DNA from: Glaucostegus cemiculus
Lineage: Eukaryota
DNA length: 64,000 nucleotides
Direction: 5' to 3'
Assembly: GCA_976551045.1 (NCBI GenBank)
Contig: CDPCPM010000026.1
Coordinates: 21,824,001-21,888,000 of the forward strand
Under the pieces are notes generated by a model. That model was not told the DNA's origin. It did not search any database and was given only the letters and a program-made list of their open reading frames with translations. Position 1 is the first letter of the stretch. The number at the start of each line of letters is the position of its first letter. The position numbers were made by a program, and so were the translations under genes. Shown here one piece after another: positions 1 through 63,955 of this stretch.

Positions 1-1794
1 GTGTTGAATTAAATGTGGGAAAAATTAAATAATCATCATTGGACAAATTCTGAGAAACAAAATTAAACAGTTCACAAAATATTCATTTTTACTCAAACAA
101 GTGTTAATAACTTAAAAAAAGTAATTCAATATTGCAGACTTAGTGCACCAACCTGTCACCTTCAAGGTTAGCACTCTCTCTGTATACTAAGAAGACAATA
201 TTCGATAAGAGGAGAGGTGAGCAAAAAGGGGAAACACTATTGTAAGAGTTTCCTCATGTACATGTTTTCATCACAAGCAAATAACTTATAACATTGAGGT
301 TACTGAGGTATTGATGAACTGTAAAACATTGGGTTTTAGATGACATGGACACGATCAGTGTTCAGGGCAGGGTGTTGGTCTGGGTGGGGTCAGGGTGAGA
401 ACCTCACCTGAAGAATGACAGACACTGAAAGTCCAGTTGTGAGGGTCACAGCCATGACAAGAGATGTAATGAGCTGAGCACTAGAATCTCAGTAATACCA
501 ATCTTCAGCATTAAGGGTCAAAGTTTCAGGATGGGTAACTTGTCTGAATTAGAGCTTTTATAGTGTTAAGGCCTTAGTTTTTACCAGTCTCTACTATAAT
601 AGAAAATAAAATACAGCAGAAGACTATGCAGCTACTTTTAAAATTTTGGGTGTGTGGATGCATTTGAGTGGAACCTTAGCCATCCTGCCATGGAACGTGT
701 GTTGGATAAGTATCTTGTTTGGAATCAGAAAGACTCTTCAGTACCAGAAATACACTGCAAAGGCACTTCGTAAAATAAGGCACCATCTCATAGTATGCAT
801 CTTTCATGAAACACGAGACAGATGCTCTTAACAAAATAGGCTTTGCAAAACAAGTATATTTCATGCGTTGGCTAAAACATACAAGTTGATACAAAGAATA
901 GCAGTTCATATTCAAGTATTAGCAATAACTACTCAAACTGAGTTTGAATAATCAAAAAATGTTTCTTGTGATGGATATTGAAACGATATTGTAAATACTG
1001 AAAAATTATGTCAGCTTTCAGAATGTGTCTATTTTTTCATTCAACTTTGCAAATATAATTTCCAGTAAAATGGCTCTGTTACAATGGGCTGAAGTAGTCT
1101 CTTTCCGCTTAAGTGCACAGAGACCCTTTCAGAAATACGTTATTTATTTTTAATATTTTTGACATAGAAGTAAAATATAATGATAATTTTAATGAAACTT
1201 TCATGTTAGTGCCAAGAATTACTTCAATGTGCAGAAGTTCACCCCAAGGTTTATACTATCCAATATACTTTGTTATCATAGCACAATTGAAGTGAGCTTT
1301 TCAGACAGACAATTCCCTAATTTGACAAGGCGTTAGTCTTTTGCAATAAGATTGTGTGCATGGAATGCAGAAATGCCCTTCAAAATTAACTATAGACTGA
1401 GAGCATTTTTGTGAGGTATAAAAGGAGTTTCTTCACAGTCCGTAACTGAATGGACTATTTAGGTTCTATGCTTAGTTTAAGTGCCCCTCATGCAGATAGT
1501 TGTGCCGTATACAACTGCACCATGGGAAATCTTGCTAAGCCAAAGTTGTTGGGCAGTGGTACTACTGTACCACTTGGGCAATGGCTTTCACCTGTTTCAA
1601 ATATACTGTATAATTGACAGTGCTTGTAATGAGTTTGAAGCCCAGTGCCTAACTCCAACCAAGTTCTTTAATAATTTTTTTTTTCTTGATCTAAGTTCCA
1701 CTGGCACGTTATTTCATTTGTGACTGGTGAAAACAGTCATTTAAAAAATTTATGATGTTTGACAGGAAGCCTGTTGTACCATGATTACACAGCA

Positions 1795-3737: not shown

Positions 3738-4080
3738 AATCTATGTTATGGGGAGGGATTTGATAGGTTGGGATTGTTTTTCCTGGAGTGAAGGAGGCTG
3801 AGGTTGATACAGAGGTAGATAGGGTAGGGTAGATAGTCAAAATCTTTTTCTCATTGTAGGGGCATTAAAACCAAGAGGACATAGGTTTAAGGTGAGAGGA
3901 AGGAGTATTGAAGGGGATCTTAGAGGTAATTTTTTCACACAGAGAATGCACTGCAAGAGGAGGTGGTGGAGTCAGGTACAACTACCTTATTTAAGAGCCA
4001 CTTAGACAGACACTTAAATAGGTAAGGCATAGAAGGATATGGTCCTAATGTGGGCAAATTGGATTAGCGTGGATAGGCAA
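3738..4080 (+). mobile_element. CR1 LINE 3' fragment
   Basis: 'gataggttgggattgttttcctggag...agaggacataggtttaaggtgagagg...tttttcacacagaga' encodes the CR1 ORF2 C-terminus (LGLFSLE, RGHRFKV, FFTQR). Confidence 0.85.
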
Positions 4081-9269: not shown

Positions 9270-10000
9270 AGATGACTCTACCATCTCCCCCATTGTCCAG
9301 CTAAGAGGAAATGGTCCCGTGTGGTTATAATCTCATTTAACAGGTTGTAGCTAGAGTCTCTCCAGCAATGGCTTCTCTCCCTTAATTCACACCCTTACAT
9401 CTGGAAACACCCCAAGGGGTCCAGCAGACCCCTCCTCTTCTTCATCTATATGGCGCGCCGTGGTCACATCATCCAAAGATGTGGGGTATTACTTCACCTC
9501 CCTCTATCTCCCTCTTGGCTACTACATCTCATTTGTTTCTGCAACATCCAGTCTTACCACTTCTGATTTAACATTGGGAAGGAAGACATCAGTCCTCACT
9601 AATTCTTGTCACCCACATTGAATCTTAGCTATTGTCATAGATTGAACCACGTTGATTCCAACCTCAGTGACCTGTTAGATGTTTAGCTGAGTTTCCAACC
9701 CTATGCCTTCACAATCATTTGTAGAGCCAACAATAGAGACGACCTCCACCTATATAAAATGACTTCTTCTGCCCCTTACACAGTCCATCTGTGCTGAAGC
9801 CCTCATTCTTGCTTTTGCCTGCTCCCAAAATGACTATTTCAGTGCTTCCACAAATTCCAGGTTATCTGAAACTCTGTCCGACTACGTTTACCATCCTTAC
9901 TGATCTTCTGACATGTATTGGCTTCTTATGTCCCAATGCCAATGATATACAATTCTATCTTCATGTTTGAGATCCTGTCAGCAACTTACCTCTCACACTA
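9270..10000 (+). mobile_element. Degenerate L2-type LINE RT fragment
   Basis: 'acatctggaaacaccccaaggggtccagcagacccctcctcttcttcatctatatg' is a decayed GVPQGS.LGPLLF.IYM RT motif, followed by L2-like downstream sequence. Confidence 0.65.
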
Positions 10001-14214: not shown

Positions 14215-15190
14215 GAGCTACATGAGCACATGGAATAGGAGCAGGTATGGGCTAATTGGCTCCTTGAACCTGCTCCACCATTCATTATATTCGTGGCATC
14301 ATAACATCAGCTCAGCATTCCTGTCTACATGCAGTGACCTTTCATCCTCTTGCTTATCAAGAAGGTATCTACCTCTCCCTGAAAAGTATTCAAAGATTCT
14401 GCCTCCACTGCTCTTTAAGGAAGAAAGGTCCAAAGAATCACAACTAGGAGTGACCCCTAGTCCGAGATTCTCCCACAAGAGGGAACATTCTCTCTACATC
14501 CACCCCATCAAGGCTGTTCCAAGATCTTTCAGCCCCTGTCTTTCCTCATAATCCAATCTTTCCTCATAAGGAATTTCAGGCATCAATTTTGTCAAATAAA
14601 ATCCAAAATAAGCTGTAGATGCTGGAAATCTGAAAGAAAACAGGGAACACTAGAACCTCAGCAGCTCAGGTAGAAGGCTGCATAGAAGTTTGGGGGCAGC
14701 TTTAAACTAATATATTTTCTCACTTTTCCAGTTCAGATGAAAAATCTTCACTCTAAAAATGTTAATGGTGTTTCCCTCTGCACAGATGCTATCTGACCTG
14801 CTGAGCATTTCCAGAATTGTCTGTTCTGATATTAACTCAGTAAACCTTCTTTAAATTGCTACCAATGCATTAATATTCTTTAAATAAAGAAAGCAACATG
14901 GTACACAGTACTTCAGATATGGTCTCACCACTGCCCTAAGTACCTAAGTGTAACCTCACTACCTTTATATTCATTTCCTCCCACAATACATGATAACATT
15001 CTATTAGCTTTCCTAATGACTTCTTGGACATGCTTACTAGCCTTTTGTGAATCATACACTAGGACACAGAGATCCACTTGCATCCTAGAGCTCTGTAATC
15101 TCTCAGCATTCAAATAATATGCTTTTTTTTTTACAGTTTTTTTCCTGCCAAAATGGACAATTTTACATTTCCCCACATTATACTCTATTC
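14215..15190 (-). mobile_element. Degenerate CR1 LINE with an internal Penelope-type insertion
   Basis: ORF 14925-15176 'GKCKIVHFGRKK...YYLNAERL...IRKANRMLSCI' is typical CR1 ORF2; CR1 3' UTR-like end near 14220. Confidence 0.85.
14605..14835. repeat. Penelope-type terminal repeat, inverted pair
   Basis: 'agatgctggaaatctgaaagaaaacag' on the left and 'cacagatgctatctgacctgctgagcatttccag' on the right; same family as 27772, 58050 and 62672. Confidence 0.7.
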
Positions 15191-16599: not shown

Positions 16600-17080
16600 A
16601 GGCTGACAAGACAGACTCGAATTTGATTCTCCATCCCACCCCTATTCCAACCTCTCTGAGTTTGGGCTGTTCCAACAATGCCCTACACTAGGTCAGGGAA
16701 TAGCACCTCATGTCCCATCGAGGCACACTCCACCCCCCAGCACTCAACAATGAATTCAACAATTTCAGATCACTAATGTTTCCAGTTTATATCACAACTG
16801 GCATAACTTTAACTCTGTTTTTCTCTCTCCATAGATGCTGCTGAAAACTTTCATGTTGCTCCTTCATATTCCATAGCAACTGCTGTGTTCTCTATCTCAC
16901 TGCTGTTTTGTCCTCTTTCCTCTGTTCTCATTTATGTTCCTTGAATTACACCTCCCCCCGCATCCTCCCACCCCACCCCAGACACATCAGCAATGATTAA
17001 TAAGCCTCTCTCAGCTTACACCAACACCATTTGTGTCACTCAGTTTCCCTTGATCTCCACCCTATCACAAACATTTGTGT
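16600..17080 (+). mobile_element. Penelope-like element 3' relic (GIY-YIG C-terminus plus terminal repeat piece)
   Basis: 'gaatagcacctcatgtcccatcgaggcacactccaccccccagcactcaacaatgaattcaacaatttcaga' reads E*HLMSHRGTLHPPALNNEFNNFR, like the PLE C-terminal EQHLIFRLGTL.P.GLN.EF; followed by 'ctctccatagatgctgc'. Confidence 0.65.
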
Positions 17081-19349
17081 CTATCCTAGACTTAACATTG
17101 GTCAGCTTCCCTAATATCTCCTTATGTAGCTCAATGTGAAATTTGAATGGCCTTTCTGCACTACAATGGCACTAAAATTCTGTAACTTTCCTGGGAAGAA
17201 CTATGGGAAGGTTTATTATATTAACAGGTGCTATATAAATGCAAGTAGCTGTTTATGTTAAATCATATTGTTATGTTGTTTGGGTGTTTGTCACAGTGAC
17301 TTTTCTCCTGATCACACCCTCACTTATACCCTTCAGGTCTACTTCATTTTGGCACGTCAGTCCAATCCTTTCAGTTCATACTAACTTTCTTTTCTATCCA
17401 GTTCACCTGCACTCCTTGTTAGTGTAGCAATCTTCCCATTCCATTTTCAATTCACACTGGCATACTTCTTCTAGTTCATGGAACCATGTTTTACCCATAT
17501 GAGTCCATGATATTAGCCCTATGATTGTAAAGGAGCTGTGACTCATATCTTGGTTGGAAGAGTATAATGATTATTTGGAAGACATGGTGTTTCTACACAG
17601 TAATCAGCAGGCCACATAAATGGAAACCCAGACCAAGTGATTAAGGAAATTCATCCATTGAGATGATCAGCATTTTCTCTGCAGAATACTCTGGTTTTAA
17701 TTATTCTGAATGTGTAACCTTCATGTGGTGAAGCACAATTTCATCACTGCAGGGTCAACCACTGCCTATGTGGTTGCTTTCTCCCATTCCTGGGATACTG
17801 TACTTTGCCTCATCCTTTGGTCCTTTAAATAACTGAAGATAACTGTGGATTTAAGGAAAAATATTACAGCTAGCTTGATGGGAATTCCAACAGTTTGAGC
17901 AATCGGAACCATGAAATCATTTTCCAAAAGAATTGCATTCTTCCACTTTCACATTGATCTGCAGGTGTCCCTGTGGCTGCTGTAAAGTTCTGACAAAACG
18001 CTTATGTTCTCTTTAATCGACATTTGTGTTTCTTGACACTGCAGCAGTTTAATCTGACACTAGACGACCTTCCTTTTACACTCAGACTAGCCAGACAGGC
18101 AATTGTGTTTGGGTTCCAATTATTTCACTGGATATCCAAATCTAATCTGATCAATCTGACTATTCACACATCCACTGCCAATCCAAAAGATCTGATTATT
18201 CACACACCCAGTACCAGGTTAGGTTATTGAAGGGCATAAAGACTGTTTCGCTTAGGTTTAGCAGCTGTCAGTGGATTTTCCATGGGATCAGCAGCTGATT
18301 AGCTTCACTAGCATTAGGTTTATCCTACACTGCAGTCAGAGAGGCAGTGGTATCTTTTGATCCTTTCACAAGTGGGATTTCAGTTTGCCAATTTTTAGGG
18401 CTATTAGGCCTCATATTTTACCAGAATGTTTTAAATCTCCCTCAACTTAGTGCTGCTGCCAAAATGGTCCTACTGGGTGCTGATAGAAAGGGATTATGTG
18501 TTGGCTTTGCCAGCGGTGTGGGTCCCTCTGGGATGCAAATGCCATGTACTTAATGGAAGTGAACCAAAAGGCCAGTTTTAAAATGTGGATTGCTGTCCAA
18601 ATAATTTTTATATGTCATTAACAAACTTGGGGGTTGAAATTGGTCCCAGATGTACCTAGTTTACAGGCATAAGGGGAGGACAAGGAGGATTAACTTCAGG
18701 GTGAAAGAGGAGATTTAAGTGGGTGTGTGGTAGACAACATCCTAGATGTCAAGAAGTGTTGAAAAAATTGAACCGGTTCTTTTCAGGCCCTTGGAGTAGA
18801 CACCTAAAGCAGCCATTAGGCCCCTTCTGCACAATAACACCTGTTATTGAACCTTTCCAAAAAGTGGACTGCCTCAGACATAGTTGCTTCACTTTCTGGA
18901 TGCGGATATGGCCAACACTGAAAAGGCAGGTACTTTATTTTTAAACTGAAGCCAGATCCACACATTCCTGACAGATGCAATCAGATCTTTCCCCCAGTCC
19001 TTCCAGGATTTACCTAAAGAGTCATGCCAGAGAGGAGTTTAGCTCCAAACCAAAGTGTTCCCTTGGCCAGTGGAGACCTGACCAGTGCTAACAGCTCACC
19101 CAAATATGTAAACCAGGCCAGAAAATCTCTAAGCTCCATCTTCCATCTTCAAGTGTTGGGTCTACTCCCAACAGTCTTGTTCTAAAAATGGGATCAGAAG
19201 AAAGTATTCTCTCTGAAACCTAGAAGAGTATACCTCCTTTATATAAAAAAACCAAATAATTGAAATAGAAGTTGGCCTGATAAGGTCCATCTCACTTGAA
19301 TTGTGTATTAATAAATTAATTGCATAAAACACTGAATTGGTTATAACAG

Positions 19350-19452
19350 TCTGAAACAACAAATAATCTACTGGAGGAACTCAGTGGGTTGAGAAGCAAC
19401 TATGGGAGGAAAGGAATTGTTAACATTTCGGGTCGTAACCTTGCATCAGGTT
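19350..19452 (-). repeat. Penelope-type terminal repeat with degenerate hammerhead motif
   Basis: Reverse complement reads CTGATGC-AAGGTTACGACCC-GAAA-TGTTAAC followed by the family tail. Confidence 0.7.
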
Positions 19453-19474
19453 AGTCTGATATTAAGTGGAAGTG

Positions 19475-20260
19475 GAATCATGGAATCCTAGAAGCGTACA
19501 GCACAGAACTGGGCCCTTACAACCCACCTCAACCATGCTGACTGTAACACCTATTTACCTGTCTCATTTTCCAGCATTAGACCTTTATCTCTTTATGCCT
19601 TCCCCATCCAAGTATCTGTCCAAACACTAACTTGTGTAATCTTATCTGCCTCCATCATCTACTCTGGCAGTTCCTTGCAGATACTCACTACCTTCTCTGT
19701 GAAAAGCTCATCTCTCAGATTTCCTTTAAATTTCTCCCCTTTTACTCTAAACCTGTGCCCTCTAGTTCTAGATTCTCTGCACTGGAAAAAGATTCTGCCT
19801 CTCTATTCTACCTATGCATCTCATAATTTTGTAAACCTCTATAAGGTCATTCCTCAGCCTGCTATGTTCCAGTGAGAATAGACCCAGCCTATCCAGTCTC
19901 TCCTTATAACTACTGTCTTCCACTGCAGGCAAGATCCTGGTGAATCTCTCCTAGACTCTTTCTTTTACTACCAAATCCCTACTGTAGTGTGGCAACCAGA
20001 ATTATGAACAAGTGTAGTCTAACCAATGTTTAGTAATAGCTGCAACATAACATCCCAACTCTAAGACTCAAAGTCTTGACCTATGAAGGCAGGCACACCA
20101 AATGTCTTTTTCACTATCATATTCAACTGTGTTGCCACTGTCAGGGAGCTGTGGACTTGCACTCCAAGATCCCTCTGTATGTCAATGCTCCTGAGGTCCC
20201 CACATTATACCTACATGTCCCACCAGAATTTGACTTTCCTAAGTGCATTACCTCACACTC
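19475..20260 (-). mobile_element. CR1 LINE 3' fragment
   Basis: 'cataattttgtaaacctctataaggtc' and 'cctatccagtctctccttataact' are reverse complements of the EVYKIM and ERLDRL coding segments; 3' UTR at the left end. Confidence 0.85.
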
Positions 20261-21795: not shown

Positions 21796-21890
21796 AATGC
21801 TGGAGATTAAATCTTAACAGTGTTTCTCTCTCCACAGATACTGTCTGATCTGCTGAGAACTTCCAGCATTTTCTGTTTCATATTCACAGT
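21796..21890 (+). repeat. Penelope-type terminal repeat fragment
   Basis: 'tctctccacagatactgtctgatctgctgagaacttccagcattttctg' matches the family tail. Confidence 0.7.
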
Positions 21891-26261: not shown

Positions 26262-26317
26262 TGCTGTTGCTGACTATTGAATGTTATAGATATAACATTC
26301 AATAGTCAGCAACAGCA
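26262..26317. repeat. Perfect 27-bp inverted repeat with 2-nt loop
   Basis: tgctgttgctgactattgaatgttata - ga - tataacattcaatagtcagcaacagca; the arms are exact reverse complements. Confidence 0.97.
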
Positions 26318-26678
26318 TGATAGAGTTATATAAAATGATAAGAGGTATTGATCGGGTAGATAGTCAGAGGCTTTTCCTCAGGGCTGAAGTGGTGGCCACA
26401 AGAGGACATAGGTTTAAGGTGCTGGGGAGTGGCTATAGAGGAGATGTCAGGGGTAAGTTTTTTACTCAGAGAGTGGTGAGTGCATGGAATGGGCTGCCAG
26501 AAACAGTGGTGGAGGCTGATACAATAGGGTCTTTCAAGAGACTGTTAGATAGTTACATGGAGCTAAGTAAAATAGAGGGCTATGGGTAAGCCTAGTAATT
26601 TTTAGTGTAGTGACATGTTTGGCACAACTTTGTGGGCCGAAGGGCCTGAATTGTGCTGTAGTTTTTCTATATTCTCTA
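26318..26678 (+). mobile_element. Young 5'-truncated CR1 LINE
   Basis: Open ORF 'IELYKMIRGIDRVDSQRLF...TRGHRFKV...FFTQRVVSAWNGLP', 3' UTR 'gggccgaagggcctg' and a ttctat-type tail; tgaatgtt occurs on both sides (26278-26285 and 26679-26686). Confidence 0.95.
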
Positions 26679-27390: not shown

Positions 27391-27771
27391 TTCATAAGTA
27401 ACAAAAAGATGGTGCCCTGATAGTGAGCAGGTGCCTGTCAATGCTATACTATAATTGACCACTAGGTGGTGCAGGAAAGTGGCCAAGGGCATTTTGACAT
27501 TTGGCTTTGTTGCCATGATTGGGGTAGTATATTGCCTTGATTGAACATTATTGAATGGATCAGCTGAAGTCACAGACACTTCGCATGGTGAATTTAAGAT
27601 TTCTATTGAACCAATTTTTTTCACCAGATAGCTGTATTTTTCCAATTCCATAAGTCACTGATTGGCAGTGTGCTTTTAAACCAAAATATATTCTGACATG
27701 GTTTGTTTTATAATATTGACAACTTCACCATGTAATATTAAAAAAAAGACAATTCAAAATTGGTAATGCAT

Positions 27772-28017
27772 GAGATGCTGGAGGAACTCAATGGATTAGG
27801 CAGCACCTGTGGAGAGAAATGGACAGATGACATTTTGGGTCAGGACCCCTCATCTGAACTGATTGGGTCAAGATCCTTCATCTGAGTCCAGATATAGGGT
27901 CTCGACCCAAAATGTCGACTGTCCATTTCTCTTCATAGATGCTGCCTGACCCGCAGAGTTCCTCCAGCATCTTGTGTGTTGCTCCAGACACCAGTATCTG
28001 CAGCCCCTTGTGTCTCC
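27772..28017. repeat. Penelope-type terminal repeats as an inverted pair
   Basis: Left arm 'agatgctggaggaactc...ggacagatgacattttgggtc' is the imperfect reverse complement of right arm 'gacccaaaatgtcgactgtcc...gagttcctccagcatct'. Confidence 0.85.
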
Positions 28018-29559
28018 AAAATTGGTAACGGATGCTTTTGTATGGGTGTATGATAGACAGCTGGTATCTTAGCAATTAAAAGGTTTTGTACTCAAATGCC
28101 ATACTGAAAATCTTAGAAATTATGAGCCTGTACAAAAAATTATCATCACATCTAGTATGCTGGTTATAAAAGCCTAACTACTGTTTCTTTAGGGAAGGAT
28201 CTTCCACCCTTCCCAGGTCTGGTCTACATGCAATGCCAGAGTGTAGCTGGCTCAATTCGGCCTCTGTTAATCATTTTTATAAGGTGGCAGTGGCTGAATT
28301 TTCACTGTCCATTCCTAATTGCAATAGGAGCTGTCAGACCAGATTTGTTGTGAAGAGGAGCTAAGAAACATCAACTATTGAGTGCTAATTTGAGGCAGGA
28401 ACCTTTCAAATGAGGTGTTGGGCTCTAGGTGTTCCAAATGTGGGTCAGACAATTTGTGATGGACTCTGAAAGAAATTATTTATACATCAGCTGCTAAGAA
28501 AAAAAATACTTTCTTCGAAAGGAACTTTCTGGATTATGCCTGACTGTTGTCTTATAGGAAGATTTATTTCCTTCAATAGTAGTTTCAGCTGCTATTTTGA
28601 GAGAAGGTGGGTGTTCCCTGGCGTGACTACATACACTGGCTTTATTTGACAATTCCTGTGACTGTATTTATGGAATTGGCAAAACTTGGAATTTTGATAA
28701 AGGAATGCTTGATACGCTTTCCTTAATTATATAAAATACTGAGATTAGCACTCAGAATTACAGAAGGCTTCAAAATGCCAATAAGTGAAGCAAATCAGTG
28801 CCAAAACTCAAAATGTTCTGAAGGAGCTTGGCTGCATGGAAAATAGATTTAATTCCTGCAGTATATATCTATCTTCTTCAGTGACCCTTGAACAATAATG
28901 CCATTGATTGTGGTTTTGTATACTGTAATAAAAATAATTAAACTCTGGATATGTCCATGGCTTGGTTAACAACAAGTGCATCTACCATTGAAACTTCTTG
29001 CCTCACTCATCTTCACGTGACACGATAACATCCTTGAGATGTGCAATATATTGTGGGTTGGTGCCTCCATAAGAATTACACCATGTGATCAGCTGCTCTC
29101 TACATTGTTCAATGTTGTTTGGTATGGAACTTGTCAGAGAATCTATTTGTCTCTGTAGAGAATGCCACAGTAAGAAGCCTTGACACTGAAAGCTTTTCAT
29201 TATTTAATAGAGCACCTTGTTTGGTAGTTTGAATCAACAATCATCATTCAGCATCTTAGAGAGAGAAGGATACTGAGAAATTGTGTCAGGGATGCAGATT
29301 AATGAATTTAGATGCCATGCCTGATTCAGAATACTGAATACTGGGTGTGATCCTTCCAAACTGAGATAACATGTAGATGTGCAGTGAGACACAGTGAGCT
29401 ATGTGATTTACTTGAATAATACACAATGGAGTAAATAAAACTGCCTGATCTGCTTGATTTTTAGGTACATACAGTAACGTCCAGAGACTAGGGACTAGGG
29501 ATAGTGGAAGAAAAATTTTGCAACGCATGCTGTCCAGAGTAGATAAACTAGGGCAGTCT

Positions 29560-31520
29560 AAACAAATCCTTGGAGAATGCACTAGATGCATCGACATTGC
29601 AAGCCACCAAAAAATGAAAATGTTGACAGTTACTGGTTCTTTACACAACTGTAAGAGCAGGGAGAAACTTTTAATACTTCCTTAACAGAGCTTTCAACAA
29701 ATAATTGCAGTTTTGCAGTATTGAAGGACTCAGTCATTAGAGATAGAATTACTGGTGGAATCCAGGGGACCAACCTGAGGAAACAGCTACTATATGAGAC
29801 AGAGTTAACTCTACAGAAGTCCATAAGTTTCTGGACTACCCAGTGCCTGGACAGAAATGTGGAACAGCCATTGTATAGGATGAAAAGGACATCAAAGATT
29901 CATGGAGTGGATGAGATGAGCTCTGCAGGGAGGTAGGAAGGGTCAGATTCAGAGTACCAGTTGGAAACGATGTACCTGGTGCCAAACAAAGTTTAATCCT
30001 GTAGAAGGAGCATTCAGTTGATGTATCTATGACATAACATTAATGCCAGGACATCCAGTGATATTTCAGCTTGACCTGGGGACAACTTGTGTTGCCAAAG
30101 CAAATCAACAATATCCATATGATACTGTTAAAACGTATGCCACATTTCTGTCAATGTAAAAGACTACACTAAAGGGAAAATATCCTCTGAAGATGGTGAG
30201 CCCAAAGAATCAGAATATGGATCCAATTGTAGTAGACCAGAAAGATGTCACATCTGGACTTGGAAGTAGTACAATACAGCAGATGGGACTGATAAATTTA
30301 CACCGTGACAGGATCGTGAAGATTGATTCAATGCAAGCAGTCACTTCAGCCGCACAGCACGCAGATGAATATGCAGATGTTTTCCATGGAACAGGGAAAA
30401 TAGAAAACAAGTATCAACTGGTCCTAGATGAGAGGAAGCTGTCAGTAGTACACTCACCAGTACCTCTCAAGGTGAACTTAAAGCTGAATTGGAGAGACTG
30501 AGCAAGACAGAGTTGGTAGTTCTGGTAGATACAACTTACCCTGGGATATTCAGTCTGATTTATGTTGAGAACTTAAGTGGTAAGGATCTGCATGGACCCA
30601 GGGGACCTTTGTGGAGCCATGGCTTTATGAGGAAGACAGAAGGTATTTTGCCAGATCTGAGAGGAATAAAATTTTCAGTGTGTTGGATGGAAAGAATGGG
30701 ACTTCAATGAGGAGAGCTCACATCTATTTCAATGCAACATTTCTTAGGTATTGTTGGAGAAGACTGCCTTTTGGAATCAAGACCATAGACCATGTACAGA
30801 AGAGAGACTTTCAGATCTCTAAAAAGGAACAAGCAGAAGAAAATACCTGGATGAGCTTTGGGCAAAAGTCATATCAGTTCTGTTCTACTTAGAGAGGAAA
30901 GTGTATCTGGTGATAGCTTACTATTCTTCAAGTTTTACAAGATAGACTTTGTAGAGAACAACCGTTCATTGCTGGCCATTTGCAAGCCCGAAGGACTGTT
31001 TGCCTTGAGGTGCTGACCTCAGATAATGGACTTCAGTTCACAGCAGACAACACTGAGAGTTTTTTAAAGGGCTGGATACATCAGGTAGCTTTTCACAGAG
31101 AAATGGAAAGGCAGAGAACAAAGTGTAGATGGCTAATACACTGCAGAGCAAAACCAAATTATAACCGTCAGATCCCTCCTTCAGCATCCTAGCCTTCTGC
31201 AGTAACCAAGCCAGAGGGATGATGAGCAGAGCCATGGAGAGACTTAGGATCAGAGAAACCACAACTCTGCTCCTAACAACAGGAATCCTGCTGGGACAAA
31301 AAGTGAAAAACAATGTAGGAGAAAAGAGTCAGCCAAAAAAAGACAGGCACACTGCTACAACAGAGATGTTACAGACACCGTCAAGAGCTGGAGACACACT
31401 CAATCAGATGGACAGCAGCTGTGGCTAAAGGTAATGGTGACTTGACACATCAGACAACAGATCAGAGAGGTCATGTTGGAGGATGGCATCCCATATCAGA
31501 GGAACTGTGTGGACTTTGTC
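29560..31520 (+). mobile_element. Decayed Ty3/Gypsy LTR retrotransposon internal region
   Basis: In order: gag 'IRDRITGGI...LRKQLL...LTLQK', protease 'FQLDLGTTC' (30064), RT 'YADVFHG', 'IFSVLDGKNG' and 'RYCWRRLPFGI', integrase 'YLVIAYYS' and 'LTSDNGLQF'. Many frameshifts; RNase H and LTRs not seen. Confidence 0.9.
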
Positions 31521-31654: not shown

Positions 31655-31745
31655 TGCATCTGTTCAGAATCTAACATAAAAACAGAAAATGCTCAGCAGG
31701 TATAGGATCATCTTGCTCCACAGATGCTGCCTGATCTGCTGAGAA
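31655..31745. repeat. Penelope-type terminal repeat fragments (inverted)
   Basis: 'ataaaaacagaaaatgctcagcagg' followed by 'ctccacagatgctgcctgatctgctgag'. Confidence 0.65.
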
Positions 31746-32019
31746 TTTGGTTAGTATGTATTGAAGTGTTGGATCATATGACCAACTGATTCAACCAAAA
31801 AATAGCTTCCAATGATGTCATAGGCATCAATGTGAAACAAAATCAATCAGCATGGATTAACAAATTGATGCTTTGTGCAATTGTTTTTTTGGGCTTTTCC
31901 CTTAATATAATGCAACAGATTAGTTCCATTAAGATAGCATGTATCTAATTATATGTAAGAAGACTGGAGTTAAACTATATCATATGCAGTCTCAAGTGAT
32001 TGTGTGAGGGATTACTGCT

Positions 32020-33087: not shown

Positions 33088-33170
33088 CATCAGTTCTGAT
33101 GCAGGGTTTTGACCGGAAATGTCGACATTTCCACAGATGCTGCTTGATCCACTGGTTGCTTGTTGTTCTG
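33088..33170 (+). repeat. Penelope-type terminal repeat with degenerate hammerhead motif
   Basis: CAGTT-CTGATGC-AGGGTTTTGACCG-GAAA-TGTC-GAC followed by 'ccacagatgctgc'. Confidence 0.75.
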
Positions 33171-40834: not shown

Positions 40835-41550
40835 AAGAGACACAAGATGCTTCAGATGCTGGAATCTGGAGCAATAAACAATCTGCTGGAGGGACTCAGT
40901 GAGTTGAGCAGCATCTGTAGGGGGTAGAGGAACTGTCACTGTGTCAGGACTGAGTGTGGAGAGGGAGAATAGCCAGTTTAAAGAAGAAAAGGGGAAGGAT
41001 AAGACAAGGGCCAGCAGGTGATTGGTAGACTAGGTGCGGGGAGGAGAAGGTGAGGGTGGAGACAGCTGCTGGAGGGTGAGAAGCAGGAACATAAAGGCTA
41101 CCAGTGCTGGAATCTGATGTGAGGAAGGTGATAATGGGAACTGTTAGGGGAGACGTAGCCAGATGGAACCAGATGGGGGAAGAGATTCAGTGGGTGAAAT
41201 GTGTGGGTGGTAGATGGATGGACTGTGAGGGGGATGGAAACAGATGATGGCAGCTTGGAGGGGAAGGGGTGTATGGGATAGGGGATAAAAATGGGAGGAC
41301 CAGAGGTGGATTGGAAGGAGAGGGTAAACCTGCCTCTGTTTCACAACTCCACCCCTGACGCTCCCCCACATAGCTTCATCTGCCCATCATTCTTCACTCC
41401 TTCTTGGTCCACCAATCACCTACTGCTCCCTATCTCACCCCTCCCCCTCTCCCCTTTATGCTTCTCCAGGCTCAGTTCTGATGCAGGTTCTTAACCCAAA
41501 ATGTTGACAATTCCCTTTCCCCTGACAGATACTGTGCAACCCATTAACTT
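40835..41550. mobile_element. Penelope-type element ends in inverted arrangement
   Basis: Reverse terminus at 40835-40950, purine-rich stretch, pyrimidine-rich stretch, then forward terminus 'cagttctgatgcaggttcttaacccaaaatgttgac'. Confidence 0.75.
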
Positions 41551-42724
41551 TCTCCAGTATCCATTAGTTTGGAGAAATATACAACTAGGCCAATTAGTTT
41601 TGAAACTAGGAAACATCTTTTCCACATGAAGGCAGGAGAATTCTGGAATTCTTTCATCAACAAGACAGTGAAGTTTTCATCACTGAGCTCATTAGATTTT
41701 TATTATGTTATTCTATCAAAGGATATTGATCCAGTCCAATTAATAGATTCGGATTTGTTGAGATCAAATTCAAAGACGTAATAGTCTCATTCATTTCAAA
41801 GTTCCTACATACTTAGGCTGAATGTAGTGCTGAACTTAATATCTAAAAAGCTGCTGTGAGTTGTGGGAATGTCAGATTTACACTAATAGTGCAATTTAGG
41901 TTTAGTCAGGTTCTTTTTGAAAAATAGCAGCTTGTTTATCCAGAAGTAAAATGTGCATTTGGAACATGATTTTTTTTTGCCTTGCACAACATTTCAAACT
42001 GTATTGACAATTCTCAGCAGATAAAATTGCAGTGAACTATTTTGTTATCTGTTTAAGAACAAAAAAATCTTACCTTATGGTTGTGGGAACTGTACAGTGG
42101 CGGGTAGATTCTGTAACTGAGCATGAATTCAATTCCTTAAAGGAAAGAGATACCTTTATTGATCATTTTTTCTCATCTCCATCCCAACAATACAGCAGAT
42201 AGTATTCCATCCATGGAAATCCAGACCTGGATGTGCACTTGTCCCCTTTACAGTTTGATAAATTGAAAGCATAAGCTTAATCCATTGTAATTTAGAAGAG
42301 GATGGCAAATATCCTTATTCTCTTGGAACAGTCTATTGCCAAATAAATGCTTCACATTTGGCATCCTGCAAATGTTCTCACATTCATTTCAATAATTAAT
42401 TATTTACTTTCAAGTTCACCTGAATTTCAGTCCCTGAGCCTGAAATGTTATCCCTAGGTGTTTACATAAGAAAGATTCAGCATCATAGAAGTCAACAAAC
42501 ATATTCCCTGTCACAGAAATTTTAGATTTCAAACCTATCAAAAACTTTTGGCCCAATCTTTAGGAAAGACTGTGACAGGGACAGGGAAAGGGTTTGCTGC
42601 AGGTGCCTATTTTTCCAGACCCTCCCCTGGCACATAGGGCAATGAAGGTGATGGGTATGTTAAATCTGTTTTAATCTTCATGTATTGTGACCTGGGGCAA
42701 TGAAAACTGTATGTGGCTTGGGTG

Positions 42725-47454: not shown

Positions 47455-48443
47455 GCTCCAGCAGTCTCTTCCCTTGCTTCCCATAGTAACCTGGGACTTA
47501 TCTATCCTAATGATTTTTAGTAGCTCCAACACTGCTTCTTTCTTAACCTTAACATGCTCCAACACATTTGCCTGCTGTACACTAACCTCACATTCGTCTA
47601 AGTCCCTCTGCCTGGTGAACACTGAAGCAAAGTATTCATTCAGGACCTCCCCTATCTCCTTCGCCTCCAGACACATTTTCCCACCTTATTCCTGAGGGGT
47701 CCTACCCTCACCCTAGTTGTCCTTTTGTTTCTCATATACATATAGAATGCCTCAGTGTTTTCCTTAACTCTACTTGCTAAAGCCTTCTCATGTCCCTTCT
47801 AGCTCTCCTAAGTCCCTTCTTAAGGTCCTTCCTGGCTACCACATAACTCTCAAGAGCTCTGATTGATTTTTGCTTCCTAAACCTTAAATAAGCTTCTTTC
47901 TTCCTCTTGACTAAACCTTCCGCCTCTCTTGTTAACCATGGTTCCTTCAGCCTACCATCCTTTCCTTGTCTCCGTGTGGACAAACCTATCTAGAACTTCA
48001 TGTAATTGGTCCCTAAACAACATCCACATTTTTGTGTTGCATTTACCAGAGAACATCTATTCCCAATTTACGCTCCCAAGTTCCTGCCTAATACCATCAT
48101 AATTTGCCCTCCCCCAATTAAATACTTTCCCATAATGTCTGCTCCTATCTTTGTCCATGGCTATGCTAAAGGTCAGGGAGTTGTGGTCACTGTCCTCGAA
48201 ATGGTCTCCCACTGAGAGGTCTGTCACCTGACCAGGTTCATTAGAATGTACCAGATCCAGTATGGCCTCTACTTTAGTCGGCCCGTCTACATACTGTGTC
48301 AGGAATCCTTCCTGGAAACACATAACAAATTCTGCCCCATCTAACCATTTTTGCACTAAGGAGGTGCCAATCAATATTAGGGAGTTGAAGTCACCCATGA
48401 CAACAACCCTGTTATTTTTGCACCTTTCCAAAATCTGCCTAGT
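47455..48443 (-). mobile_element. CR1 ORF2 endonuclease/linker fragment
   Basis: 'RVVVMGDFN', 'FLTQYVDGPT...ILDLV', 'SDHNSLTF' (APE endonuclease) and 'EVLNEYFASVFT'. Confidence 0.95.
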
Positions 48444-48576
48444 GATCAATCCAAAACCTGCCATACTTAACATCTTTACTCTTTCTCCAATGCTACTGAA
48501 AATTTCTAAGTGTGTTTAAATGTTAATGCACATGGTGGATAATGCAGTTGGTCATAACAATTGCTTTACTGCTCTA

Positions 48577-48879
48577 CGGCACGGTAGCATAGTGGTTAGC
48601 ACAATGCTTTACAGTGCCAGCGACCCGGGTTCAAATCCGGCCACTGTCTGTAAGGAGTTTGTATGTTCTCCCCGTGCCTGTGTGGGTTGCCTCTGGGTCC
48701 TCCGGTTTCCTCCCACATTCCAAAGACATACAGGTTAGGAAGTAATGGGCATCCTATGTTGGCGCCAGACGTGTGGCGACACTTGTGGGCTGCCCCCCAA
48801 AATCACTATGCAAAAGATGTATTTCACTTTGTGTTTTGATGTACATGTGACTAATAAAGATCTTATCTTATCTTATCTT
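48577..48879 (+). mobile_element. tRNA-derived V-domain SINE (HE1-like), full length
   Basis: A-box-like 'tagcatagtgg', B-box 'ggttcaaatcc' (48628-48638), V-type core, aataaa and (tctta)n tail. Confidence 0.92.
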
Positions 48880-58049: not shown

Positions 58050-58220
58050 CAAAACATCTGCAGATGCTGGAAATTTGAAATAAAAACAGAAAATGTTGGA
58101 AACACTCAGGCAGCATCTATGGAAAGAGAAACAGACAACATTTCAGGTCTGCTACATTTCATCAGAAAAGTCTTCATGACTTGCTGAGTGTTTTTAGCAT
58201 TTTCTGTTTTTATTTCAAAC
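58050..58220. repeat. Penelope-type inverted pair (36-bp fold-back)
   Basis: Arms 58074-58109 and 58184-58219 are reverse complements with three substitutions. Confidence 0.9.
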
Positions 58221-58714: not shown

Positions 58715-58872
58715 AAATTAGAAGCAACAAACAATCTGCCAAAGGAATTCAGTCAGGTCTTGACCTGAAGCATTGACAATCCTTTTTCCCCCATAGATTC
58801 TGCTCAGCCCACTGACTTCCCCAGCAGATCTTTGTTGCTCCAGATTCCAGTCTCTGCAATCTCTTGTGCCTA
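58715..58872. repeat. Penelope-type terminal repeat (short reverse piece plus forward copy)
   Basis: 'agcaacaaacaatctgc' versus 'gcagatctttgttgct'; tail 'ccagattccagtctctgcaatctcttgtg'. Confidence 0.7.
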
Positions 58873-60379
58873 CAGGGAAATAGAAAATGCTTGGATCTCC
58901 AATCTTTCCTCAGAAAACCTATCTTTGCCTGAGATGTTCTAAATGAAAATTAATGTCAGTGTTTCTTCTTTGAAGCATGTGCAAAATTATTTTTGAAGAG
59001 CAGGCTGTCTGTTAATCTGAGTGATGTTCTGATGGGATATATTAGAAGCAACCAAATAGGGAGTTTCTTTTCTAACAACTCCTTGAGTGAAGTTTCATCA
59101 TGAATCCTATTATCAGTATTTGTTCAGTGACATTTTGGTCACCACTCAGCATTGTACAGATTAAAAGGGCATACTTGAAATTTTCAATGGGGAATATTTA
59201 AGAGGAAATGAGCTTGCTTAGCAAGAAAGTCATTAGAGTTGATGTCACTAGTTCAGACCATTGGCCAGGTCCATATTACAACTTAGGAGGATAATTGAAT
59301 GCAAAACGACTGTAAATTCTGAAGATTTAACTCTTATATTGATGATTAAATGCACAAATTGTTGCTCATTAAACTGGAGACATGGTGGCTGCCTCTTTAT
59401 TGCCCCATGCTGGTTATCCCCATGCTCAAAATTACAGTTTTCTTAAAAGAGAAATAGAAATGGTGTTCTCAAAGTGGTTATAATAATACAGGACCAAGCC
59501 ATTTCACAGAGATTTACCAGACAATGATATCATTTGGAAGCTATTGTTTGGAAGAAATTCTAAAAAGGAATGGCTTTCCTGATACTAAAGTTTGTAAGTT
59601 TTGGTCATATATTGGCTTTGAGGATCCTTAAATTCAAGAGCAAAAATCTTAACAGTGAGTGATTTCAAGATTCCTGAGGTAGGGTAGCTTAGATTGTACT
59701 GTATTGATTTAATTGTAACATTTAGAGTGCTATTTTCCTATTTTTAACATTGCAAATATCCCAGTATTTTCCTTTGAATAAATGCCATTGCACTGGATAG
59801 CAAAGAAATCTGCAATTGGAGGTAACAAAATGTGAGAATGTGAAATCATCCGACAGTAAATGCGGAACAAAAAGAGATTTGAAAGCAAGTATTGACAGTT
59901 AAAACAGTGCCAATAAGTTTAATCAAAAAGCTGTACATTGCAAGGCTAAAAGATTGAATGAAAAAATGAAAATATACAAGAAAAGTATATTTCCGGCTGA
60001 TGCTGGAAAAAACTTGGAGATAGAGAGACCAGCAGATTTATTTTTTTTTGCATTTCTCTCTCTTAATGGGCAGACCTATTATCCATAAACACCAACAATT
60101 TGTACAGTATATAAGAAATGATTAGAGCAGTAGATTTGGGTGGAGGTTTGCAGCATCCTATTAATTCAAGGTAATTTCTACCATCAAAGATCAAATGTAC
60201 CATTCCAACTGGAGTGAGTGATGATCTTAATGTTCCTAGCAGCTGAAGATGAAACATGTTGGCCACATTTTTGGAACACGTTATAAATCAGGTCCACAAT
60301 GGTATTCTTTATTATTTATATCAAGCAGGACAGATTCCAAGGTCAGGGCTTCACTCTCCTTGAACTGAACACAATATTT

Positions 60380-60674: not shown

Positions 60675-61195
60675 AGAACCATAGAACACTACAGTACAGA
60701 AAACAGGCTGTTCGGCTCTTCTAGACTATGCCAAAACTTTATTCTGCTAGTCCCCCTTACCTGCATCCAGTCCATAACCCTCCAGACCTCTCCTGTCCAT
60801 GTATCTATCCAATTTATTCTTAAAACTTAAGAGTGAGCCCGCATTTACCATGTCAGATGGCGGCTCGTTCCGCACTCCCACCACTCTCTGAGTGAAGAAG
60901 TTCCCCCTAAACCTTTCCCCTTTCACCCTAAAACCATGTCCTCTCATATTTATCTCTCCTAATCTAAGTGGAAAGAGCCTACTCACATTTGCTCTGTCTA
61001 TACCCCTCATAATTTTGTAAACCTCTATCAAATCTCCCCTCATTCTTCTACACTCCAAGGAATAAAGTCCTAACCTGTTCAAACTTTCCCTGTAACTCAA
61101 CTCCTGAAGACCTGGCAACATACTAGTAAATCTTCCTTGCACTCTTTCAATCTTACTGATATCCTTCCTATAGTTAGGCGACTGGAACTTCACAT
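60675..61195 (-). mobile_element. Young 5'-truncated CR1 LINE
   Basis: 153-aa open ORF 'RKDISKIERVQGRFTSMLPGL...RGDLIEVYKIMRGID...FFTQRVV'; (ttctatgg)-type tail; atattt on both flanks (60669-60674 and 61194-61199). Confidence 0.95.
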
Positions 61196-62671
61196 ATTTG
61201 TGAAGCACTCAATCTTTTAAAAGAAAAGTTAACGAATTTTGCCAGTGTCAAATTCCCACGTAGAGCATGTTGTTCAGCCATACTGCTTGCATTGGAGGAT
61301 AGACCCTGAGTTGTAAGGAAAGTCTGGAAGCACTGGGTCTTCAAACTCAAAATTAAATGCATAGAGGGTGAACTTCCAGAAATAAGTGGGATTGATAAGG
61401 GTATTCTGAAAGATAACCTGGACTGTTACTTCAAGTTAAACTCTGAAAGTAGAACCAGGTGACAAATGTAACATGTGACAGAATGTTATTTTAAAACTGG
61501 TGGCAGGATGCTCTTCTAAATGCAAAATGTTCTCCATGTGCAGAGTAACCTCACAGATATTGTGCAAGATTCCTGAACTCATTTAAAAAAGAACAGATTT
61601 CTGCTACTAGTTGTGCTACAATATGTTTCTGACCACACTGGATACATGGATAAAAATGGGCCAATTGTCTTCCTTTGCTCAAAATTACCTTGTAAACCCC
61701 ATCTTTCCATTCCACTAACCTAAGCTTCATGGAATCATACCTCCTTGTGCTGAAAGTTTGATCATGTTGCATGCTTAAGATTGGCAATTAAGCATCTTAT
61801 ACTGTTAATGTTATCACTGGATTCTTTCAACTGATAGACTAATAACATTACAATTGACTGCATTTCAGATATTAACGTAGGATCAACTTACCATGAAACA
61901 GAATGAGAAGAAGCAAAATTTAAATAATAGCAGAAAAGATGTCACTGTGGCTTAACTAGTGCAAAAAAAAATCAAAAGGATGACAAAAATTCAATTGCAA
62001 AACTTGGAATGCACATCTCTGAGGAACAAAGACCACTAAAATCAGGTATTCATGGAATTCTGACTCATTGGCAAGGCAGAGCTCCACCAAATAAATCTTG
62101 ATATAAAGCATGTAATTGGCAAGAAGAAAGATACAAAAATTTACCTTCAGATGAGAAAATGATGGGTCAGATCACCCTGGAAGCAGTCCTCTGTTTGGAC
62201 TAGCCATAGGTGGTATCTGCCCTCCCACACTTCCCTATTTTAAATCCAGAGCATTGAACAAGCTGAAGTTCCCTACTCCAGGACCCAGGGAGTGTCCCAT
62301 GAGGCAGAGTCAAGCATGTCTCAGGCAGCGCAGAAGTGTGGAACAGCCTGACAATCTTTGACAGCTCACCATCGCCAAAGGATTTGTTTAAATGAGAGAA
62401 ATCTAATATTATTCAAGTAAAGTTACTGAATTTAAAAAAGTATAAAATGATCAAAATAAATTTTATTTATGACAAAATCAGATACAAATAATTGAAATAT
62501 GAAATTAAGAAAAATAATCTGAAAACTTACCCTTTTAGCATCCCGATTTAAATGAATGTTAACATTTGTATGTTAGCCCTCACAGGGTAAAGCTAAGGAT
62601 GGTTGCAAAATCTGGACTCTCTCTCCAGTCCATAGTGAGTCTATGGCAGAGCAGGAGGTCAGTAAATCCAC

Positions 62672-62880
62672 TTGTCACCTGCCAGCTCCTGCCCCACCCC
62701 TTCCTCCTCACCTCCTTATACTGCGTGTCTCCCCTCTGTCTTTCAGTCCTGATGAAGGGTCTCGACCCAAAACATAGACAGACTGTCCATTTCCCTCCAC
62801 AGATGCTGCCTGACCTGCTGAGTTCCTCCAGCATTTTCATTGTTGTTCCAGTTTCCAGCATCTGCAGTCTCTTCTGTCTC
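62672..62880 (+). repeat. Penelope-type terminal repeat with best-preserved hammerhead motif
   Basis: CAGTC-CTGATGA-AGGGTCTCGACCC-AAAAC at 62744-62773, then 'gactgtccatttccctccacagatgctgcctgacctgctgagttcctccagcat'. Confidence 0.85.
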
Positions 62881-63955
62881 TAACACTGACATCTGACTTC
62901 TTCGTCATTTCGTAGGTGTTTGGCGAGCAGGCGCAGGAGTCCAAAATGAGTTTAGATGTGAGTGGGCTGACTCACTGAACAGGACTGTCAGCTGTCAGTC
63001 TGCTTGGTTCAGCCTGAAGGTCCAAAACACCCGGAGTCCCTTCACAGGCTGGAAGCTTTCTGTCTAAGTCCACTCCTGAGTGAATCTGGCACCACCAGTT
63101 TCCTCAGTCACACTGGCTGCACTCTGATGGACTGAAATGCTTTGAGACCTGATGAAGCGTATACCCCCACCCCCACTGCCCAGCTTAATCGACTGTCAAA
63201 GCTGTATGTGAACTTAAACATTTGTGAATGTTTCATCACAAATATTCAAAAACATTGAATAACTAATGGGCTAGATCAAGCTCATTCTGACCTGCCCATT
63301 CAGACTTGCTGCCTGTGTTAGTCCCACAGTTGCTCTTATATTTTGTGACTCAATGTGAGTAAGCTCCAGGCCTTGCTGCCCATGCTGTTCCACGAGGAGA
63401 GCAGGGGAGGGACCAGTGAGTACATCTCAGGTAGTGGATCCCAAGCAATACCTTCATACTGCCCTGATGAAATTTTCACAGCTCTCTACAGTCAAAGGCC
63501 ATTGAATTGCTTTTAAATCAGCAACATCTACAAACACTTCAGAAGGTCCTAAATAATTAAAACTTACTAAAATTAAAAAAATCAAAAATTTTAAGTGAGG
63601 TTACAATGATATAAATTATTACAAACATTATGATTAAGTAGTGTAAAGAAAAGGAGCCATATCACCTGCCTGTAATTAGCTTCTCATGATAGGTTGGTGA
63701 CCCCAGTCAAATGAATGGGACCACCATTCCATACCTGGCCCCTCCACTCAGGATGTTTGTACTCCACCCTGGACTCAGCAGATATCAGAGGTGAGCTGAC
63801 ACACAAAGATCACCTCACCGATGGTCCTCCAAGGAACTGCCAGCGAAAGGTAAGCGTGGTTCAGGCCATTAAAATTAAACATAATATTAAGTTCCGCCAG
63901 GAATCTGCCAGCTTTATTTGCTGACAATTCAGACCACTGTCATGTTGATTTTAAA

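What the first reader, a model, noticed from the sequence alone, without database searches (positions are those of the whole stretch)
62744..62785. Dispersed repeat family reconstructs to a minimal hammerhead ribozyme
Seen: related motifs at 62744 (+), 27885 (+), 33091 (+), 41473 (+), 19416-19450 (-), 27825-27860 (-) and 58134-58167 (-). Combined they give CAGTC-CTGATGA-A-GGGTC(TC)GACCC-GAAA-CG-TC-GACTG. This has stem I (CAGTC/GACTG), core CUGAUGA, stem II, GAAA, a palindromic ACGU in place of stem III and a GUC cleavage triplet. Established: Penelope-like elements carry minimal type I hammerheads with a palindromic stem III that can act as dimers. Inference: this is a PLE- or retrozyme-derived family, supported by the GIY-YIG-like C-terminus beside the same repeat at 16.7 kb. 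No copy here has a fully intact core, and many changes fall at consensus CpGs (CCCGAAACG to CCCAAAATG/CA), suggesting methylation-driven decay.
Basis: partly seen in the sequence, partly recalled or inferred. Interest (0 to 1): 0.7.

Follow-up and report, generated by a model that had tools for sequence, protein, structure and literature searches.

The report
Decayed Penelope transposon hammerhead ends
The repeat is the end-piece of a very abundant Penelope-type jumping gene and carries an already described kind of tiny, likely self-cutting RNA motif, broken in every copy in this window; about half of the copies sampled elsewhere in the genome begin at that motif's first bases, likely because the element's RNA starts there.

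Summary
Observation confirmed; the kind is known. All seven cited motifs exist, among 15 family pieces in the window, none with an intact core. The repeat is the pLTR of a ~3.4-kb Neptune-type Penelope-like element: 19 of 20 GIY-YIG loci carry it 370-456 nt downstream, and long copies read repeat, RT, CX4CXXC linker, GIY-YIG, repeat. The 16.7-kb ORF remnant is real (E 3e-7). CpG sites are hit 3.6-fold more often than other sites. Roughly 0.5 million pieces genome-wide (extrapolated). Minimal hammerheads in PLE pLTRs, including fish Neptune elements, were described in 2014 (PMC4209133), and this scan noted the family before in this genome and others. Cleavage was not tested. One extra: 43 of 90 copies picked on their 3' part start within -7..+3 of the core, and only 2 near the cut site. 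This suggests short copies made from the 5' end of uncut RNA; an earlier scan note hinted the same. No retrozyme arrays were seen.

The parts
62666..62881 (+). 5'-truncated PLE end: about 80 nt of 3' UTR, hammerhead remnant, post-cut segment and tail (subfamily A2)
62744..62785 (+). Decayed minimal hammerhead (the finding): stem I 5' strand, CUGAUGA and stem II intact; G12>A, G16.2>A, C17>A, 4-nt insertion
27764..27862 (-). Left arm of a head-to-head pair; starts at offset -6; core changed (U4>A, G12>A); no tail. A short extra inverted hammerhead fragment lies between the arms
27885..28021 (+). Right arm of the head-to-head pair, with tail; starts at offset -4; core broken
33090..33163 (+). 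Short copy starting at offset -6; C at core position 9 (subfamily B type)
41403..41580 (+). Copy with 3' UTR; C at position 9; G12>A; inverted partner at 40836-41060
40836..41060 (-). Inverted partner copy with tail; hammerhead largely deleted
19336..19475 (-). Copy of subfamily B type; C at position 9; CpG decay
58057..58167 (-). Older subfamily C copy starting at offset -2; head-to-head with 58172-58215
58172..58215 (+). Short inverted arm, 3' part only
58747..58874 (+).
14701..14834 (+).
16644..16772 (+). Remnant of the PLE ORF C-terminus (end of the GIY-YIG domain), with a stop
   Evidence: protein profile E 3e-7, nucleotide profile E 9e-5
16805..16845 (+). Weak repeat remnant after the ORF remnant; hammerhead part lost
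21809..21884 (+). 3' part of the repeat, subfamily C type
31709..31748 (+). Short 3' fragment of the repeat

Best explanation
The repeat is the pseudo-LTR of a Neptune-type Penelope-like retrotransposon, whose first 38 bases have the sequence and predicted fold of a minimal type I hammerhead that likely self-cleaved in source elements only as a dimer or with protein help; every copy in this window is a broken relic. Shown: a ~3.4-kb unit reading hammerhead repeat, tail, 5' region, RT, CX4CXXC linker, GIY-YIG, ~300-nt UTR, hammerhead repeat; two 3' end positions about 35 nt apart; frequent head-to-head pairs; CpG-type decay; 5' ends of short copies piled at the hammerhead's first bases. Inferred mechanism: the element's protein nicks DNA and starts reverse transcription inside the RNA at the tail sites, as shown for the anole element. 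The RNA carries that site twice. Starting at the 3' site gives 5'-truncated ORF-UTR-hammerhead-tail copies such as 62666-62881. Starting at the 5' site likely runs off the RNA's 5' end after 100-140 nt and gives solo copies that begin at stem I. Priming on both DNA strands would give the head-to-head pairs. The template was likely uncut, since copies do not start at the cleavage site.
For: Linkage: 19 of 20 GIY-YIG loci, picked from 150 scored matches without regard to the repeat, carry it 370-456 nt downstream on the same strand. Pfam: GIY-YIG E 3e-4; RVT_1 E 0.03; RT motifs readable in L086. The CX4CXXC linker upstream of GIY-YIG marks Neptune/Nematis (PMC8557442 passages). Long copies: the repeat continues straight into the element's 5' region in 11 of 22 distinct loci; L327 has the repeat at both ends, L328 a partial 5' and a full 3' repeat about 3.4 kb apart. 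Hammerhead constraint: with stems fixed and core free, the first 100 of 5077 matches vary most at N7 (U50/A40/G8/C2) and keep the other six positions at 85-94 of 100 (hand tally). An older subfamily has U2.1-A1.1 where younger ones have C-G (22 of 23 against 3 of 66 at 2.1) and G.U at 10.1-11.1. 3' ends bimodal: 37 of 90 at +80..99 and 38 of 90 at +120..139. Head-to-head 13 of 18 close pairs. 5' pile-up: 43 of 90 at -7..+3, 2 at +29/+30. Anole element: internal RT start, tail, protein-assisted hammerhead, uncut RNA as main substrate (PMC11167929).
Against: No cleavage was tested. Pfam scores are below the curated cut-offs, and no RT tree was built, so Neptune against Nematis rests on the linker and on published vertebrate distribution. 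No intact ORF was seen among the loci examined. The stem I change is one ancestral event, so the copy counts and the 3/500 shuffle result (hand-picked, pattern-selected rows) overstate it. The monomer's lowest-energy fold (-12.4) buries the core against -10.2 for the hammerhead fold, and the best predicted dimer is a non-hammerhead duplex. A subfamily with C at position 9 amplified well (263 exact matches against 478), so an intact core may not be needed to spread. The 5' pile-up is weaker in incidental copies: 33 of 110 at -12..+3, and 6 of 40 at -7..+3 among those at least 85% identical. The -7..+3 window was chosen after seeing the data, and the 90 copies are the first 30 listed per pattern (contigs C1-C7). 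RNA reads showed no pile-up of starts at either site.
Confidence: 0.9

Rival explanations
1. A non-autonomous retrozyme or SINE-like family: a short hammerhead RNA with its own source genes, copied by PLE enzymes, possibly through circles.
For: About half of the sampled copies are 100-140 nt with a common start. In subfamily B 26 of 30 copies have no UTR beyond -7, and only 1 of 15 B loci showed an ORF end upstream. Retrozymes derive from pLTRs (bioRxiv 10.64898/2026.07.22.740005).
Against: No tandem arrays in the window; 4 of 18 close pairs are same-strand and irregular. Short copies share subfamily marks with ORF-linked copies, and the same start occurs on long copies L319, L320, L324. Copies are not permuted at the cut site.
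Confidence: 0.12
2. The element is a PLE, but the 5' pile-up comes from cDNA fold-back or microhomology at stem I rather than from an RNA start: stem I's two strands are reverse complements, so a new cDNA can snap back or join an inverted arm exactly there.
For: 15 of the 43 edge copies have an inverted arm directly upstream, some joined through the stem I bases. 8 of 15 listed opposite-strand joints in RNA reads have one side at 1495-1498, the start of stem I (53 more not shown). Self-priming was proposed for head-to-head PLE junctions (PMC3846280 passage).
Against: 28 of 43 edge copies have no inverted arm, and several have target-site-like duplications of 8-15 nt. The mode at -4/-5 sits on an initiator-like YCAGT (consensus recalled).
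Confidence: 0.3
3. The hammerhead is vestigial in this family: the sequence is kept as promoter, protein-binding site or splice acceptor and does not cleave.
For: The C9 subfamily spread. No copy starts or read ends pile at the cut site. A pyrimidine tract plus CAG overlaps stem I, like the intron end at helix I in D. virilis (PMC4209133). Hammerhead mutants did not affect insertion in vitro (PMC11167929).
Against: N7-only freedom and pair-keeping changes between subfamilies fit selection on the hammerhead fold. No common spliced-on exon precedes edge copies.
Confidence: 0.2
4. Chance resemblance of an unrelated SINE or LINE tail to a hammerhead.
For: No Rfam hammerhead hit; the motif is short.
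Against: All core boxes, the extra base before 10.1, G10.1-C11.1 and palindromic 15.2-16.2 are present as published for PLEs, and the repeat sits in the PLE terminal repeat.
Confidence: 0.01

Closest known systems
Minimal hammerheads (min-HHR) in pLTRs of metazoan Penelope-like elements; Cervera and de la Pena 2014, PMC4209133 (main text parts 1-2 of 4 read; 2 of 3 supplement files searched)
   Same: Type I, no helix III, extra base between 9 and 10.1, G10.1-C11.1, palindromic 15.2-16.2, in PLE terminal repeats, mostly single dispersed motifs, several subfamilies per genome; reported from fish Xena, Poseidon and Neptune elements, coelacanth and Xenopus.
   Different: Stem II is 4-5 bp rather than 6-8. 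About 0.5 million pieces in all (extrapolated), though only hundreds match the intact patterns. A subfamily with C at position 9. No shark or ray was named in the parts seen; the unsearched supplement file may list one.
Neptune clade of endonuclease-positive PLEs; Craig et al. 2021, PMC8557442 (passages)
   Same: RT, CX2-5CXXC linker, C-terminal GIY-YIG; strong 5' truncation; partial tandems; inverted 5'-truncated neighbours; optional 30-40-nt tail.
   Different: Clade not confirmed by a tree; no intact ORF seen.
Anolis Poseidon element PAc; Frangieh et al. 2024, PMC11167929 (parts 1-2 of 4)
   Same: Hammerhead at the pLTR-ORF junction; tail about 100-140 nt downstream; no reads ending at the cut site.
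   Different: Other clade. The ORF start here is not fixed: an ATG at +47 was in frame in 1 of 3 testable copies. The parts read do not describe solo copies starting at the hammerhead's 5' edge.
Animal non-LTR retrozymes; bioRxiv 10.64898/2026.07.22.740005 (passages and parts 2-3 of 5); PMC7229834 (search listing only)
   Same: pLTR-related hammerhead repeats in vertebrates, including one chondrichthyan genome.
   Different: Retrozymes are tandem units; this family is dispersed, inverted and tied to an RT-GIY-YIG ORF.

Membership tests
Minimal type I hammerhead of PLEs | Core boxes CUGANGA, GAAA and a UH cleavage site in type I order | tested here: met
   Majority of unselected copies; 478 exact matches. 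Met for the family; not met for any window copy.
Minimal type I hammerhead of PLEs | Stems I and II pair, with G10.1-C11.1 and an extra base after position 9 | tested here: met
   88% of cells paired against 18-44% for slid controls; C-G to U-A at stem I pair 1 between subfamilies; one ancestral event, rows hand-picked.
Minimal type I hammerhead of PLEs | No helix III; palindromic 15.1-16.1 allowing a dimer | tested here: met
   Sequence; the 4-bp intermolecular duplex is weak (-1.7) and a competing duplex is predicted.
Minimal type I hammerhead of PLEs | Self-cleavage after H17, as a dimer or protein-assisted | not testable with these tools
   Indirect signs absent: no pile-up of copy starts or read ends at the site.
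Rfam hammerhead families | Covariance-model hit | tested here: not met
   No hammerhead family among 8 matches at E<=10 in the window; intact copies elsewhere were not scanned.
Endonuclease-positive Penelope-like element | Single ORF with RT followed by GIY-YIG | tested here: met
   all copies broken; Pfam scores under the cut-offs.
Endonuclease-positive Penelope-like element | pLTRs flanking the ORF; 5' truncation, inverted neighbours, 30-40-nt tail | tested here: met
Neptune clade | CX2-5CXXC linker upstream of GIY-YIG | tested here: met
   CX4CXXC in L021, L082, L086, L095; shared with Nematis.
Neptune clade | RT phylogenetic placement | not tested
   No reference PLE RT set was fetched.
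Non-LTR retrozyme | Head-to-tail tandem units, each with one hammerhead and no ORF | tested here: not met
   No array in the window; 4 irregular same-strand pairs among 82 copies in 464 kb. Arrays elsewhere in the genome are not excluded.
Non-LTR retrozyme | Abundant small circular RNA | not tested
   The one lay of reads listed opposite-strand joints only among the 15 shown.

The most novel reading that the evidence does not exclude
The hammerhead's first strand is also the transcription start of this Penelope element, so internal priming at the 5' copy of the tail yields a 100-140-nt run-off cDNA that inserts on its own. About half of all insertions would be such solo hammerhead copies made from uncut RNA, which would explain why minimal hammerheads litter animal genomes as single motifs and would place any ribozyme action outside the integration step.
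Probability: 0.35. Interest if true: 0.5.

Novelty: new member of a known kind. Interest (0 to 1): 0.22.

Why it matters
As a class it is ordinary: PLE-borne minimal hammerheads are published and the copies here are dead. Two things have modest value. The family is huge (69 pieces and 5.7 kb in 400 kb sampled, about 1.4% of the sample), so it can serve as a natural record of PLE insertion chemistry. And the 5' ends pile at the ribozyme's start, not at its cut, which bears on the open question of what the PLE hammerhead is for and can be tested by 5' end mapping.

Tried and rejected
Rfam scan of the window: no hammerhead hit. tblastn of one frameshifted ORF against the window missed the 16.7-kb remnant; a profile of natural C-terminal stretches found it. 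Genomic sign of cleavage (copies starting at +28): not found, 2 of 90 at +29/+30, and flat in 110 incidental copies. RT stalling at the hairpin as cause of the pile-up: rejected, it would stop at the 3' base of stem I (+33), not at -4. Spliced template as cause: no common upstream exon in 43 flanks; the 17 of 903 similar pairs are explained by inverted arms. Loose read ends at 1496 were not used, since subfamily UTR differences would produce them too. No RNA holder listed for the intact copy; three raw RNA runs of organism A, one study, mostly under 90% alike, cover the repeat on both strands with no pile-up of ends; this says nothing on activity. ORF start not fixed. Host gene not identified: 15 open stretches gave only a LINE endonuclease hit. 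Literature searches for a shark or ray PLE hammerhead found no dedicated paper; two searches gave the papers used. The library lacks most subscription papers and Repbase/Dfam, so absence from print is not shown.

Full report
Observation. The window is vertebrate-like DNA (39% GC, CpG observed/expected 0.16) from a 2.85-Gb assembly. That it is a shark or ray is recalled from the look of the repeat and echoed by earlier scan notes; no call of mine shows it. They are the 5' part of a 100-140-nt repeat with 12-14 profile hits and 15 alignable pieces in the window. None has an intact core. The 62744 copy keeps stem I 5', CUGAUGA and stem II but has G12>A, G16.2>A, C17>A and a 4-nt insertion. Rfam finds no hammerhead.

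The reconstruction is right. An exact core-plus-stem-II pattern matches 478 places, control 0; 6 of the first 30 also have a perfect stem I, two of them duplicates of each other. In 40 arbitrary 10-kb stretches there were 69 hits, 0 in the reversed control, which extrapolates to about 0.5 million pieces; this is rough, since counts ranged 0-6 per stretch and only large contigs were sampled.

Hammerhead constraint. With stems fixed and the core left free, 5077 sites match; by hand tally of the first 100 listed (contigs C1-C7, duplicates included) N7 is U50/A40/G8/C2 and the other six positions of the box are kept in 85-94. An older subfamily (80 exact matches) has U2.1-A1.1 for C-G, U17, and G.U at 10.1-11.1. 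On a hand-picked 31-row alignment 88% of cells pair, against 18-44% for slid controls. This is one ancestral change, not many. Against function: the monomer's best fold buries the core and the best dimer is a different duplex, and a subfamily with C at position 9 has 263 exact matches. Hammerhead numbering and the cleavage rule are recalled; the min-HHR traits come from PMC4209133.

It is a Penelope-like element. L021 has a GIY-YIG stretch upstream of the repeat. A search with it gave 32582 candidates, 150 scored. Of 20 that I fetched (chosen for long open frames or rank, skipping a near-identical duplicate group), 19 have the repeat 370-456 nt downstream on the same strand. RT motifs lie upstream, copies are progressively 5'-truncated, and the linker is CX4CXXC, the Neptune/Nematis mark (PMC8557442). 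At the far 5' end the repeat's tail runs directly into the element's 5' region in 11 of 22 distinct loci. Of 13 longer stretches, 7 read 5' region, RT, GIY-YIG, repeat in order; L327 has the repeat at both ends and L328 gives a unit of about 3.4 kb. All are broken. The window's 16644-16772 stretch is this ORF's C-terminus (E 3e-7). 3' ends fall in two groups about 35 nt apart, the known tail, and 13 of 18 close neighbour pairs are head-to-head, both standard PLE traits. No tandem arrays were seen, so the retrozyme reading is not supported.

Where copies begin. I took the first 30 loci for each of three subfamily patterns lying 3' of the cut site (3291, 1736 and 2414 matches). 43 of 90 begin within -7..+3 of C3, mode -4/-5; 18 begin at +4..+33, only 2 at +29/+30 beside the cut at +28; 29 reach further upstream. 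The excess over the flanking rates is large, but the window was chosen after the fact. In 110 incidental copies 33 begin at -12..+3, but only 6 of the 40 youngest at -7..+3, so the size of the effect is uncertain. The flanks share no common exon; 15 of 43 are inverted arms. Three long copies start at the same edge. RNA reads of a related organism cover both strands with no pile-up of ends; 8 of 15 listed inverted joints sit at the stem I start.

Mechanism. Shown: anatomy, linkage, end positions, decay. From the literature: the anole PLE protein cuts both DNA strands, starts reverse transcription inside the RNA at two tail sites, assists its hammerhead, and uses mainly uncut RNA (PMC11167929); min-HHRs cleave weakly and only as dimers or with an extended helix III (PMC4209133). 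Inferred: priming at the 3' tail gives truncated ORF-UTR-hammerhead copies; priming at the 5' tail runs off the RNA start and gives solo copies; two-strand priming gives head-to-head pairs. The edge overlaps an initiator-like sequence (consensus recalled); PLE pLTRs hold promoters (PMC2377424 and PMC3846280 passages). Fold-back at stem I is a serious rival for the edge.

Novelty. Minimal hammerheads in pLTRs of fish Neptune elements and as dispersed single motifs were reported in 2014. My searches found no paper on this family in cartilaginous fish beyond one genome in a 2026 retrozyme preprint; one supplement file of PMC4209133 could not be searched, and repeat databases were not available. 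The scan has noted this family 7 times in this genome and the kind in other genomes, once with the same 5' edge hint, seen after my own test. Verdict: real, correctly read, a new member of a known kind, relics in this window; interest 0.22.

Noticed in passing
genome-wide; window 19450(-), 33091(+), 41473(+); L190-L204: A subfamily with C in place of A at hammerhead position 9 and only 3 bp of stem I has 263 exact matches against 478 for the canonical core, and is mostly short solo copies.
   Followed up: partly
window 27885(+), 27861(-), 14730(+); L006, L007, L012, L014: U4>A in the core recurs in subfamily A2 (5 of 18 unselected copies); it is not a CpG change, so it is probably inherited from a source element.
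   Followed up: no
hammerhead offsets +25..+30: The six bases across the cut site are a palindrome in both the young and the old subfamily (both central bases changed), but not in the N7=A subfamily.
   Followed up: no
L319, L320 (G000:C50, C63): Mini-elements of about 430 nt: repeat, about 150 nt of 5' region, then a second repeat joined at a short shared CCAG, suggesting a template jump from the RNA's 5' end.
   Followed up: partly
hammerhead offsets -25..-3 and +33..+46: Two splice-acceptor-like signals (pyrimidine tract plus CAG) flank the hammerhead, the second followed by ATG; no spliced copies were seen.
   Followed up: partly
L054: 3105-4363 and 6479-7723: A 1.25-kb PLE fragment present as 97% identical inverted copies 2.1 kb apart, with an unrelated open stretch at 8773-9426.
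   Followed up: no
L021/L023 and L055-L079; L028-L030: Groups of PLE fragments lie inside larger duplicated segments (24 near-identical GIY-YIG loci on many contigs), which inflates intact-core counts.
   Followed up: partly
window 62916-62978 (+): An acceptor-like site followed by a 20-codon open stretch and a stop, 35 nt after the 62744 element; possibly the last exon of an unidentified host gene.
   Followed up: partly
window 48057-48515(-), 60747-61208(-), 26296-26589(+), 3872-3948: Fragments of a LINE (endonuclease hit PF14529, E 0.001; C-terminal pieces that look CR1-like by recall).
   Followed up: no
window 29655-31328: Broken open stretches that look like an LTR retroelement remnant by eye; no Pfam hit.
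   Followed up: no
window 26262-26317: Perfect 27-bp inverted repeat with a 2-nt spacer at the edge of a LINE fragment.
   Followed up: no
window 6382-6649 and 48590-48861: Another dispersed repeat present as an 86% inverted pair 42 kb apart; also seen in L032 and L034.
   Followed up: no
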